Source: a virus (Duplodnaviria; Heunggongvirae; Uroviricota; Caudoviricetes). Taken from it: a DNA stretch of 31,343 bases. The stretch lies in the IMG/VR virus record IMGVR_UViG_2526164609_000021. One strand, written 5' to 3'. The position numbers and the translations under genes are program-made. Shown here piece after piece: positions 5,527 to 9,909 of the stretch. The first letter of the stretch is position 1; each line of letters opens with the position of its first letter. Under the pieces are notes generated by a model that saw only the letters and a list, made by a program, of their open reading frames with translations, searched no databases and was not told the origin of the DNA.

Positions 5527-6761
5527 AATTACCTCTCGCTTTTCTGCAATAAAAAAGGCACCATTTCTGGTGCCCGTATCTGGGTTATAAAATTCAGCTA
5601 ATCGTGATGCCTGCAGTGGCTTTCTTCATCACAACAACCAGCAAATCGCTGATACTTGCTGTGGGATACCAGCCATTTACCAGCCATGCCGATACAGAAA
5701 ACTCCAGCGTCATGTGACCGTGACCGGCAGGCATATCAATAACACCCGTATATATCAGCGTATTATCCAGGGTCGTTCGGTTATAAATTTCAGCACCGTT
5801 TTTCTTCACTATCAGGCGGCATGACGAATAAATATTGTTATTCTTCCGCTCATGTTTAGCACCGCGAAACGCCACCGCGGGAATAACAATTTGCCGATCA
5901 AACGGCTGATCGTCATAAACCCTGACGGTAATGGTCCCTGATGGCCACCTCTCCGGTGCCCGGGAGTCCCGTGGGAAAGGTTTGCCCACTGTTTTAACGA
6001 GATCGCCTTCAATCTGGTTCGCGGACAATTTTCCCAGAACCCGACAGTTCTTATTAATCGTGACGTTGTTGAGCGTCCCGGAGTTCGCGTTCACGTTACC
6101 GCTGATATCGGCATTTTTCGCCGTCAGCCGTCCGCCAGGTGTCAGGGAAAATGCCGGAGGATTACCGCCGCTGGTTATGGTCGGAGCCGTCAGGCGTTTC
6201 AGGAACACGTCGTTCATGAATATCTGATCGCCCTGACCAACAAACATCGGCTTTGTGTTGCCATTCGCAGGATTAATCATCGCAATCCTGTCTGCCGCCA
6301 GCAGCACCTGACTCTGCATTCCTGCTGGCGTATTCTCAATACCGGCACCGATACCCGCAATATAAAGGCGTCCGTCCTTCATCTGTTGCAGCTTCACAGC
6401 CCACATGCTGTTCAGATTATTATTTGTATCAACCTGAACTTTCTGTATCTGCTGGATTGCAGCACTCTGATTTTCCAGTTTTTTATTGACGGTTTGCGTG
6501 ATTTCATTGCTGACATTCGTAATGGACGTCCTGATTTCAGTCAGGTCCGGCGCAAGCTGACCGTTATCAATCTGCGTCCACAACTCCTTGCCGAGATGCG
6601 TTTTATTGATCAACCCTTTATAAAAACTCAGATAACCTTCCGCATCATCGCTCGCCCGACCGACGGCCTCCACAAATGCCGATTTGCCAACGGTGTTCAC
6701 ACTGCGGGTGATGCTGCCAACTTACTGATTTAGTGTATGATGGTGTTTTTGAGGTGCTCCA

Positions 6762-7037
6762 GTGGCTTCTGTTTCTATCAGCTGTCCCTCCTGTTCAGCT
6801 ACTGACGGGGTGGTGCGTAACGGCAAAAGCACTGCCGGACATCAGCGCTATCTCTGCTCTCACTGCCGTAAAACATGGCAACTGCAGTTCACTTACACCG
6901 CTTCTCAACCCGGTACGCACCAGAAAATTATTGATATGGCCATGAATGGCGTTGGATGCCGGGCAACTGCACGCATTATGGGCGTTAGCCTCAACACGAT
7001 TTTACGTCACTTAAAAAACTCAGGCCGCAGTCGGTAA
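6762..7037 (+). CDS. insA: IS1 InsA
   Basis: 91-aa [40 protein letters not shown]... Confidence 0.9.
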
Positions 7038-7081
7038 CCTCGCGCATACAGCCGGGCAGTGACGTCATCGTCTGCGCGGAA

Positions 7082-7459
7082 ATGGACGAACAGTGGGGAT
7101 ACGTCGGGGCTAAATCGCGCCAGCGCTGGCTGTTTTACGCGTATGACAGGCTCCGGAAGACGGTTGTTGCGCACGTATTCGGTGAACGCACTATGGCGAC
7201 GCTGGGGCGTCTTATGAGCTTGCTGTCACCCTTTGACGTGGTGATATGGATGACGGATGGCTGGCCACTGTATGAATCCCGCCTGAAGGGAAAGCTGCAC
7301 GTAATCAGCAAGCGATATACGCAGCGAATTGAGCGGCATAACCTGAATCTGAGGCAGCACCTGGCACGGCTGGGACGGAAGTCGCTGTCGTTCTCAAAAT
7401 CGGTGGAGCTGCATGACAAAGTCATCGGGCATTATCTGAACATAAAACACTATCAATAA
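7082..7459 (+). CDS. insB: IS1 InsB frame (Met-initiated portion)
   Basis: 125-aa [47 protein letters not shown]...; intact. Confidence 0.85.
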
Positions 7460-9909
7460 GTTGGAGTCATTACCCACACTGCGAACGTAAAAATAATAAT
7501 CATGGCCCGCCTGATATTGATACTGGCGGCTATCCAGTACAGCGCCGTGCCAAGATAGCGGGCGCTGGTTTCAACCTGCCTGATATCCGCAATCCGCTTT
7601 TCCGAAAACCAGAACTCAAACTGCACCGTCGGGTCATATATAGCCAGTTTCGGGACCGCCGTTATCTGAAAATACCCCGGTATCAGTTCAATAGTGACAG
7701 GCGCTGCCGGTGCCGCAATCCGGAACGATACCGACGCCGGATCGCCCTGCTGCCCCCGGGCATTTACCGCCCGGACTGTCAGACTGTAATTCCCCAGCGC
7801 CAGCTGCCTGAAGCGGTATGTGGTTTCCGTCGTCCTGGCTGTGCTGACCAGCCGCTCACTGCCGTCGTCCGCTGCCACGGTCAGGCGAAGCAGGAAGCTC
7901 ACACCCTTCACCACCTTCGGCGTGTCCCATCGCGCCAGCACCTGATATTCCCCGCTGTCTGCGGTGACTTCGGCGGTCAGATGCTGCACCGCTGGCGGCG
8001 TGACACCATTCACCGTGCCGCGCCGGTCACCGTCAAAGTGTGCCCCGTTATCCACGATGGCCTCTTTTTCCGGCACATGCTGCACGGCGGTGATGGCATA
8101 CGTGCCGTCGTCGTTCTCACGGATACTCACGCAGCGGAACAGGCGCTGGCGCAGCGTCGGCAGCTTCAGCCCCCACACGCTGTATTCTGCAACGCCGTCA
8201 GGAACCCGGCTCACTTTCACCTTCACGCCGTCGGTGACGGACTGAACCTCCACGCTGACCGGATTGCCATTTCCGTCAACCAGGCTTATCAGCGTGGTAC
8301 CGGAGGACGGCAGCGTGATTTCACGGTCGAGCGTCAGCGTCCGGGTCTGGCTGTTCACCGCCAGTACGCGACCACCGGTGCTGATACCGGCATAATCATC
8401 ATCGCAGATTTCAATGACATCACCCGGTACATGGCGAAGCCCTTCTGCGCCGACGCTGAAGTCCACGGTCTGCGTTTCCAGCAGTTCCGTTTTAATCAGC
8501 CACAGCCCGGCGCGGTGCGCCTGTCCCCGGCTGGTACAGCCAAAGGCATCCATCTTCGTGGCGTTACGACCGTAACGGAGAATGGCCTGCGTGTCCTCCA
8601 CAAGCTCTGTCGCCGTCTCATGACCGTTGTCCGGATCAATCCAGTTCACCTCAACGACATTATGGCGGTCCTTCAGGGCGCTGAAGCTGTAGCGGAACGG
8701 CGCGCCATCATCCGGCATCACCACATTACTGCGGTTATAGGTCCACACTTTATCCGACGGTCGGTCCTGCACGAACGTCAGCGTCTGCCCGTTCCATACC
8801 GGCATACAGCGCATCGCCGAGCAGAAATCACTGAGAACATCCCACGCCTTACGCTGTGTGGTCAGGTAAGCGTTACAGGTGATGCGCGGCTCCGTGCCGC
8901 CAAATCCGTCCGGCACTGACTGGTCGCAGTACTGGCCGATGACATACAGCGCCCATTTGTCCACATCTGCCGCACCAAGACGTTTCCCCATGCCGTAGCG
9001 CGGATGAGTGAGCATGTCCCACAGACACCAGGCCATGTTGTTGCTGTATGCTGGCTTAAGCGTTCCGTCCCAGATACCGCTGTATTGCCGCGTCTGCGGG
9101 TTATAGTTCGACGGCACCTGCAGAATGCGCCCGCGAAGATGATAATTGCGACTCACCTGCTGGTTACCGAACTGCTCTGAATCCACCTGCACGCCGACCA
9201 GCGCCGTGTTCGGGTAGCACTGTTTCACATCGATGATTTCGGTGTACGACGACCAGAGCGTTTTGTTCTGCAGCTGGTCTGTGGTGCTGTCCGGTGTCAT
9301 CCTGCGCATCCGGATATTAAACGGGCGCGGCGGCAGGTTACCCATCACCACCGAGGCCAGATACTGCGAAGTGGTTTTGCCCTTAATGGTGATGTCTTTT
9401 TCCGTCACCCAGCCACCGTTACGCTGTATCTGAACCAGCAGGCGGACTTCCGACGGATTCCGGTCCCCCTTTGAGGTGTTTTCCACCAGTGCCTGCACAC
9501 CGAAGGTCAGGCGCAGACGATCAATGTTTGCCGACGTGATGGTCCGGGTGATCGGCGTGTCGTATTTCACTTCCGTACCCAGCACAGTCTCTGAGCCGGA
9601 AGATTCAAACCCCTCCGGCGGTGTCTGCTCCTGCTCGCCGGCGCGGAACACCACCGTAACACCGGAAAAGTTTGTCTTCCCCTCGCTGTCCAGGACCGGC
9701 GTACCGTTCAGCAGCACGCTTTTTAATCCATCCACCGGACCGTCAACCGGCCCTTCGCTGATGGCATCAATCACACTCAGCAACTGCGTGGATTTCAGGT
9801 TGTCCTTCGCTTCGCGCGGGGTATGCCCCTTACTGCTGCCTTTACCCATTCCTCACGCTCCATAAACGACAAAACCGCCCGCAGGCGGTTTCACATGAAA
9901 CATTTTGCA

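What the first reader, a model, noticed from the sequence alone, without database searches (positions are those of the whole stretch)
5594..9849. J gene hit twice: IS1 with 9-bp duplication plus an independent upstream frameshift
IS1 copy 2 is flanked by the direct repeat cacactgcg. Because IS1 (768 bp) and the duplication (9 bp) are both multiples of three, the insertion alone preserves frame, yet the two J parts are in different frames. The sequence [11 protein letters not shown] is readable only in the C-terminal frame, which places a 1-bp loss near 7507..7512 (agg cgg gcc atg, where lambda has aag ccg ggc cat g from memory).
Basis: partly seen in the sequence, partly recalled or inferred. 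Interest (0 to 1): 0.45.

Follow-up and report, generated by a model that had tools for sequence, protein, structure and literature searches.

The report
Twice-broken phage tail gene in Shigella
The tail-tip gene J of a decayed lambda-like prophage in Shigella dysenteriae carries an old one-base deletion and, 26 bases downstream, a later IS1 insertion, which is ordinary gene decay of a well-known kind in Shigella.

Summary
J lies on the minus strand, 9849 to 5594. A 768-bp IS1 (6707..7474) sits between two copies of CACACTGCG (6698..6706 and 7475..7483). One base is missing beside 7509/7510: the J strand reads AGGC-GGGCC where intact relatives read AGGCCGGGCC.

Removing IS1 and one repeat copy, then restoring that C, gives a clean 1159-codon ORF. 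That ORF is 99.7% identical in DNA to an intact J in E. coli FDAARGOS_943. So there are exactly two lesions.

The window is Shigella dysenteriae 225-75 (AKNG01000040.1). The deletion is not a read error. It recurs in nine further Shigella assemblies, three with the same IS1 and six with an empty site holding a single CACACTGCG. No assembly fetched has IS1 with an intact frame. The IS1 carriers share a derived SNP. The deletion therefore came first, and IS1 later landed in an existing pseudogene, next to the most AT-rich 20-mer of the gene.

The same old lineage also carries a nonsense codon in gene I and a 1-bp deletion in gene T. An IS4 cuts off the head genes. The ipaH effector gene remains intact. 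This is routine Shigella prophage decay and is of low interest.

The parts
7475..9849 (-). 5' part of prophage gene J (codons 1 to about 792). After the deletion the reading frame runs into IS1 and stops at 7453..7455, giving a 798-aa product that ends ...[22 protein letters not shown].
   Evidence: Pfam hits on record for the product: FNIII-A_GpJ, Phage-tail_3, Ig_J, Ig_J_second.
7509..7510 (-). Site of the 1-bp deletion, in codon 781 of J. One C of AGGCCGGGCC on the J strand is missing (a G of CCCGGCC on the + strand). The frame shifts by one.
7484..7503 (.). AT-rich patch (AACGTAAAAATAATAATCAT, 85% AT) directly abutting the duplicated target. It ties for the most AT-rich 20-mer of the 56% GC J gene.
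   Evidence: 99.9th percentile.
7475..7483 (.). Target-site duplication copy CACACTGCG on the side towards the J start.
6707..7474 (+). IS1 of the IS1A type, 768 bp, in the opposite orientation to J. IRL 6707..6729, IRR 7452..7474, insA 6762..7037, A6C frameshift motif at 7013..7019. The InsAB' fusion frame is open for 232 aa.
   Evidence: (98.8% to an annotated IS1A). Pfam DDE_Tnp_IS1, Zn_ribbon_InsA and HTH_Tnp_IS1 on the identical copy in L012.
6698..6706 (.). Target-site duplication copy CACACTGCG on the side towards the J end.
5594..6706 (-). 3' part of J (central fibre and receptor-binding region). It is open in the original J frame, and gene callers report it as a 368-aa GTG-start ORF at 5594..6700.
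   Evidence: Pfam Phage_Tail_Tip and Ig_GpJ_C.
10027..10029 (-). Associated older lesion: nonsense codon in tail gene I (Q142*, CAG to TAG). All twelve deletion-bearing loci checked have it (eleven assemblies; L009 and L014 both come from the window's own record). S. flexneri SFBU1023, lambda and PhiR55_1 have CAG.
15475..15476 (-). Associated older lesion: 1-bp deletion in tail assembly gene T (GAGTGGGGC to GAG-GGGGC), shared with L010 and L011.

Best explanation
This is the tail-tip host-specificity gene J of a defective, ipaH-carrying lambda-like prophage in Shigella dysenteriae 225-75. It was inactivated in two successive, independent steps.

Step 1, older. One C was lost from the CC doublet in codon 781 (AGG CCG GGC to AGG CGG GCC). 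This truncated J to a 791-aa product lacking the C-terminal fibre and receptor-binding part. The lesion is shared by a whole group of S. dysenteriae / S. boydii strains, together with a nonsense codon in gene I and a 1-bp deletion in gene T.

Step 2, younger. In one sub-lineage an IS1 transposed into the already dead gene 26 bp downstream. It duplicated the 9-bp target CACACTGCG and landed next to the most AT-rich patch of the gene.

No function is gained. The prophage also lacks its head genes, which are cut off by an IS4, so J was free to decay while the ipaH effector gene stayed intact.

Shown here: both lesions, their exact positions, their presence or absence across the assemblies fetched, and the nesting of the IS1 carriers. 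Inferred: the order of events (by parsimony), neutrality of the decay, and AT-richness as the reason for the insertion point.
For: Source. The window is 100% identical over 14,397 bp to AKNG01000040.1, S. dysenteriae 225-75.

Two lesions only. The rebuilt J differs from the intact 3480-nt J of FDAARGOS_943 by 11 substitutions and one gap. After repair it is a stop-free 1159-codon ORF, 81.6% identical in protein to lambda J over its full length.

The deletion is real and older.
- The deletion allele without IS1, with a single CGCAGTGTG, is in L010, L011, L015, L017, L018 and L019.
- The deletion allele with an identical 768-bp IS1 and identical duplication is in the window, L012, L013 and L016.
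- The intact allele without IS1 is in FDAARGOS_943, CFSAN029787, S. flexneri SFBU1023 and E. coli ECMA0423.
- No locus has IS1 with an intact frame.
- IS1 carriers alone share a derived A at J nt 2897, where the outgroups have T.
- The 791-aa product of the IS1-free allele (P0031, 8 contigs) is identical to the first 791 residues of the window's 798-aa product.

Other support. The gene I nonsense codon and the gene T deletion are shared by the deletion-bearing loci. Hawkey et al. 2020 (PMC7373316, read) report that IS1 is the commonest IS in Shigella and that 11-24% of interrupted genes carry both an IS and another inactivating mutation.
Against: No reads were available, so the base call at 7509/7510 in this particular assembly is supported only by concordance with other assemblies.

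The order of events rests on parsimony and on one derived SNP (nt 2897). Recombination is evident in this gene: L010 and L011 carry a roughly 560-nt mosaic patch, and recombination could blur such inference.

Several of the complete genomes have the same accession prefix (CP0268xx) and may share a sequencing project and platform. Some of them show extra single-base gaps (J nt 1676, 1897, 2093) that may be errors.
Confidence: 0.94

Rival explanations
1. The 1-bp loss at 7509/7510 is a sequencing or assembly error in a short G/C run, so J was hit only once, by IS1.
For: The site is a GC-rich run (CCCGGCC). The source is a draft WGS assembly. Some related complete genomes show probable single-base errors elsewhere in J.
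Against: The same missing base is present in ten assemblies, including separate WGS records and complete genomes. The resulting 791-aa and 798-aa products are recorded on 10 and 8 contigs respectively. The deletion co-segregates with lineage-specific SNPs and with the gene I nonsense codon.
Confidence: 0.02
2. IS1 inserted first and the deletion arose later. Alternatively the IS1-free strains lost IS1 by precise excision, or the deletion was a by-product of IS1 insertion or excision 26 bp away.
For: The two lesions are only 26 bp apart. Recombination occurs in this gene.
Against: Six IS1-free loci carry the deletion with a clean single 9-mer, and none carries IS1 with an intact frame. The IS1 carriers are defined by a derived SNP, so they form the nested, younger group. 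Precise excision of IS1 is rare (established knowledge) and would have to have happened repeatedly.
Confidence: 0.03
3. The frameshift is tolerated or functional. Either a full-length J is still made by programmed -1 ribosomal frameshifting or transcriptional slippage, or J works as two separate polypeptides.
For: The two frames overlap by 94 nt in the IS1-free allele, and gene callers find a GTG-start 368-aa ORF.
Against: The overlap holds no X XXY YYZ slippery heptamer and no homopolymer of 6 or more. In this window IS1 separates the two parts by 777 bp in the opposite orientation. Genes I and T are also broken, and the head genes are missing.
Confidence: 0.01

Closest known systems
Bacteriophage lambda gpJ (central tail fibre / host specificity protein, NP_040600.1) and the 1159-aa J variants of lambdoid prophages such as PhiR55_1 and E. 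coli FDAARGOS_943
   Same: The repaired ORF is 81.6% identical in protein to lambda J over its full length and 99.7% identical in DNA to the FDAARGOS_943 J. Gene order matches: H-M-L-K-I-J-lom-stf. The Pfam domain set matches.
   Different: Here the gene is a pseudogene, with a 1-bp deletion in codon 781 and an IS1 after about codon 792. Codon 780 is Arg (AGG) rather than Lys (AAA) as in lambda.
IS1 (IS1A type), the 768-bp insertion sequence of E. coli and Shigella
   Same: 768 bp. 18/23 terminal inverted repeats. insA and insB' with an A6C -1 frameshift site giving a 232-aa InsAB'. 9-bp target duplication. Insertion next to AT-rich DNA. 98.8% identical to an annotated IS1A.
   Different: Nine substitutions relative to the FDAARGOS_943 IS1A copy. 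The other two IS1 copies in the window are a distinct iso-IS1, about 91% identical, and one is 767 bp.
IS-driven and mutational pseudogenisation in Shigella (Hawkey et al. 2020, PLoS Genet, PMC7373316)
   Same: IS1 is the dominant IS. [quoted passage not shown] This locus is a worked example.
   Different: That study covers S. dysenteriae serotype 1, S. sonnei and S. flexneri and does not mention prophages (0 occurrences of the word). Here the order of the two hits can be read directly from sister strains.

Membership tests
IS1 family insertion sequence | Element of about 768 bp bounded by roughly 23-bp imperfect terminal inverted repeats | tested here: met
   6707..7474 is 768 bp. IRL and IRR match at 18/23 positions.
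IS1 family insertion sequence | insA and insB' reading frames joined by a -1 frameshift at an A6C motif to give the InsAB' transposase; IS1-specific Pfam domains | tested here: met
   A6C at 7013. The simulated -1 shift gives an open 232-aa fusion. PF03400, PF03811 and PF12759 are recorded on the identical copy.
IS1 family insertion sequence | 9-bp target-site duplication, with a single copy at the empty site | tested here: met
   CACACTGCG lies on both sides. Six empty-site loci carry one copy.
IS1 family insertion sequence | Transposition activity of this copy | not testable with these tools
   Coding capacity is intact, but activity needs an experiment.
Lambda gpJ tail-tip / host specificity protein | Full-length sequence similarity and the J domain set | tested here: met
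   81.6% identity over residues 1-1158 versus lambda 1-1131 after repair. Pfam FNIII-A_GpJ, Phage-tail_3, Ig_J, Ig_J_second, Phage_Tail_Tip and Ig_GpJ_C.
Lambda gpJ tail-tip / host specificity protein | Position in the tail module between I and lom/stf | tested here: met
   Window order H, M, L, K, I, J, lom, stf matches PhiR55_1, lambda and FDAARGOS_943.
Lambda gpJ tail-tip / host specificity protein | One uninterrupted reading frame encoding a functional protein | tested here: not met
   A frameshift in codon 781 and an IS1 after about codon 792. It is a J pseudogene, not a functional member.
Programmed ribosomal frameshift (recoding) site | Slippery heptamer X XXY YYZ or a slippage-prone homopolymer in the overlap of the two frames | tested here: not met
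   None found in the 94-nt overlap.

The most novel reading that the evidence does not exclude
The decay may not be purely neutral. The old lesions in T, I and J, all shared by the S. dysenteriae / S. boydii loci examined that cover them (T could be checked only in L010 and L011), together with the intact ipaH effector gene, could reflect selection to lock an effector-carrying prophage into the chromosome. Alternatively the 791-aa N-terminal J fragment, whose sequence is identical in IS1-free and IS1-bearing strains, could still be made and serve some purpose. Nothing found here argues for either reading. The substitution pattern, 7 non-synonymous against 4 synonymous versus the nearest intact J, looks relaxed.
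Probability: 0.04. Interest if true: 0.3.

Novelty: already known. Interest (0 to 1): 0.07.

Why it matters
It matters little beyond correct annotation. The two ORFs at 7453..9849 and 5594..6700 should be annotated as one J pseudogene, not as a 'fibronectin type III domain protein' and a 'hypothetical protein', the names they carry in the source record.

The locus is a tidy, datable example of stepwise prophage decay in Shigella: a point lesion first, then an IS landing in a gene that was already dead. The presence or absence of this IS1 could serve as a lineage marker within the S. dysenteriae / S. boydii group.

Tried and rejected
- Sequencing error at 7509/7510: rejected because the same deletion recurs in ten assemblies.
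- IS1-caused deletion, or IS1 first: rejected because the deletion exists at clean empty sites, and the IS1 carriers are a nested group.
- Recoding or programmed frameshift: rejected, as there is no slippery site or homopolymer.
- More than two lesions in J: rejected, as repairing the two gives a stop-free 1159-codon ORF.
- Literature search for the CP0268xx accession numbers, to name the strains: no papers found. Organism names came from protein records instead.
- The GTDB representative-genome scan found only two further loci, both with the intact allele.
- NCBIfam, Pfam and PADLOC scans of the three AT-rich ORFs at 25386..29280 gave nothing. This was a side lead and was not pursued.
- Two of my own scripts had indexing slips. 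They were redone correctly.

Full report
**What is in the sequence**

Gene J lies on the minus strand, from the ATG at 9849..9847 to the stop at 5596..5594. A 768-bp element at 6707..7474 on the + strand begins GGTGATGCTGCCAACTTACTGAT and ends with its 18/23 inverted copy. The 9-mer CACACTGCG occurs exactly twice in the 31-kb window. Both copies abut the element, at 6698..6706 and 7475..7483.

Removing the element and one 9-mer leaves 3479 nt, which is not a multiple of three. The N-terminal part reads in frame 0 as far as ...[20 protein letters not shown]. The C-terminal part reads in frame 2 from ...[17 protein letters not shown] to the end.

**Locating the second lesion**

I aligned the rebuilt gene to seven uninterrupted J genes. 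Six are annotated intact: lambda, phages PhiR55_1 and vB_EcoS-640R1, and E. coli FDAARGOS_943, CFSAN029787 and RMDEC364. The seventh, from an E. coli O121 strain, is annotated as a pseudogene with an internal stop. The only indel private to the window is one missing base at window 7509/7510.

The nearest relative is the intact 3480-nt J of FDAARGOS_943, which differs by 11 substitutions. It reads ATC AGG CCG GGC CAT GAT where the window reads ATC AGG CGG GCC ATG AT. One C of a CC doublet in codon 781 is lost.

Restoring the C gives a stop-free 1159-codon ORF. It has 7 amino-acid differences from FDAARGOS_943 J and is 81.6% identical to lambda J over its full length. J therefore carries exactly two disabling lesions. 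They are the frameshift in codon 781 and the IS1 insertion after about codon 792, 26 bp apart.

**Identity of the insertion**

- The element is 98.8% identical to an IS1A annotated in FDAARGOS_943.
- It has insA (6762..7037) and the A6C motif at 7013.
- A simulated -1 shift at that motif gives an open 232-aa InsAB'.
- The identical copy in related genomes carries the Pfam IS1 domains.
- It lies in the opposite orientation to J.
- The 20 bp abutting the duplicated target (7484..7503, 85% AT) tie for the most AT-rich 20-mer of this 56% GC gene. That fits the long-known preference of IS1 for AT-rich DNA, which I state from established knowledge and did not test here.

**Source, and whether the deletion is real**

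The exact 798-aa product of the 5' ORF is on record only from Shigella dysenteriae 225-75, contig AKNG01000040.1. That contig is 100% identical to the window over 14.4 kb. No reads were available, so I used other assemblies as the test.

| State at the J site | Where found |
|---|---|
| Deletion, no IS1, single CGCAGTGTG | S. dysenteriae CDC 74-1112 (AERM01000114), CP026840, CP026842, CP026832, CP026828, CP026825 |
| Deletion plus an identical 768-bp IS1 with the identical duplication | the window, CP026807, CP026823, CP026815 |
| Intact AGGCCGGGCC, no IS1 | E. coli FDAARGOS_943 and CFSAN029787, S. flexneri SFBU1023, E. coli ECMA0423 |
| IS1 with an intact frame | none among the loci fetched |

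The 791-aa product (deletion only) is recorded on 8 + 2 contigs. The 798-aa product (deletion plus IS1) is recorded on 7 + 1 contigs. Source names are S. dysenteriae and S. boydii. The 791-aa product is identical to the first 791 residues of the window's product. The deletion is therefore a real, inherited mutation.

**Order of events**

In the table of variable sites, every Shigella locus shares the deletion and five substitutions relative to the intact alleles. A subset shares T at nt 2657. Only the four IS1 carriers share A at nt 2897, where the outgroups have T. The IS1 carriers are thus a nested, derived group.

The deletion came first, and IS1 later landed in a gene that was already dead. 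The alternative is repeated precise excision of IS1 leaving the deletion behind, which is far less parsimonious. One caveat is that L010 and L011 carry a mosaic patch of about 560 nt, so recombination does act on this gene.

**Context**

- Relative to the FDAARGOS_943 prophage (99.3-99.5% identical over window 4341..16752, and 98.3% over 1875..4354, which covers stf, the DUF4376 gene and part of ipaH), the window also has a nonsense codon in gene I (Q142*, 10027..10029). It also has a 1-bp deletion in gene T (15475) and several indels in the side tail fibre gene.
- The gene I lesion is shared by all deletion-bearing loci. The gene T lesion is shared by L010 and L011, the two other deletion-bearing assemblies whose loci cover it. 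The gene I lesion is absent from S. flexneri SFBU1023 and from the phages checked.
- On the head side the prophage ends after FI at an IS4 (18496..19842). Terminase, portal and capsid genes are gone.
- The cargo gene ipaH (1071..2822, 583 aa) is intact and passes the NCBIfam IpaH cut-off.
- J is therefore one decaying gene in an immobilised, effector-carrying prophage remnant.

**Comparison with what is known**

This is a textbook case. Hawkey et al. 2020 (PMC7373316) show that IS1 is the most abundant IS in Shigella. [quoted passage not shown]

A recoding explanation fails. The 94-nt overlap of the two frames has no slippery heptamer and no long homopolymer. In this window IS1 also separates the two halves.

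**Verdict**

It is extended by the order of the two events and by the wider decay of the tail module. Novelty is nil at the level of kind, and interest is low.

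Noticed in passing
window 25386..29280 (IS1 copy 3 at 25672..26438, minus strand): A 767-bp iso-IS1, about 91% identical to the IS1 in J, has its own 9-bp duplication TAAGTGGCC (25663..25671 and 26439..26447). It splits a reconstructable 671-aa AT-rich ORF with predicted membrane helices (25386..25671 plus 26448..28177). Two more ORFs of 103 and 261 aa follow. None of the three hits Pfam, NCBIfam or PADLOC. The cluster sits just downstream of a P2-like gpD gene, a position where P2-like prophages often carry defence cargo, so it may be an uncharacterised defence-type cassette.
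   Followed up: partly
window 10027..10029 and 15475..15476: Two further old lesions lie in the same tail module: a nonsense codon in gene I (Q142*) and a 1-bp deletion in gene T. The gene I lesion is in every locus carrying the J deletion; the gene T lesion is also in L010 and L011, the only other assemblies whose loci cover it. The gene I lesion is absent from the intact-allele loci and phages where it could be checked.
   Followed up: yes
window 18496..19842: An IS4-family transposase gene truncates the lambdoid prophage just after gene FI, so all head and packaging genes are missing. In related strains (L010, L011) an IS66 element cuts the prophage even closer, at window-equivalent 16785.
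   Followed up: partly
window 21778..22686 (minus strand): A chimeric ORF. Residues 3-51 match a P2-type phage tail tube protein and residues 40-302 match the C-terminal half of tagaturonate reductase (UxaB). This marks a junction between a P2-like prophage remnant (sheath 22686..23870, gpD 24217..25137) and a truncated chromosomal gene.
   Followed up: no
window 1071..2822 (+) and 1..753: An intact 583-aa ipaH effector gene is the prophage cargo. In several related strains it is shortened to 374 aa. An iso-IS1 copy cut by the window edge lies next to it and is present at the same place in CP026840.
   Followed up: partly
window 4051..4905 and 4073..4516: The side tail fibre gene is truncated to 284 aa, against 442-470 aa in relatives. 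Relative to FDAARGOS_943 it has several small indels at 4073, 4105..4112 and 4350, and a 3-bp deletion at 4516.
   Followed up: no
L010 / L011, J nt 1101..1662: The J pseudogenes of S. dysenteriae CDC 74-1112 and CP026840 carry a roughly 560-nt patch of about 35 clustered substitutions relative to the other Shigella copies. The patch partly matches an E. coli O121 allele. This points to recombination or gene conversion between prophage J copies after the frameshift arose.
   Followed up: no
L013, L016, L017 (J nt 1676, 1897, 2093): Some complete Shigella genomes of the CP0268xx series show extra single-base gaps in J, one of them in a G5 run shared by three records. These could be further real frameshifts or homopolymer sequencing errors. 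None is present in the window.
   Followed up: no
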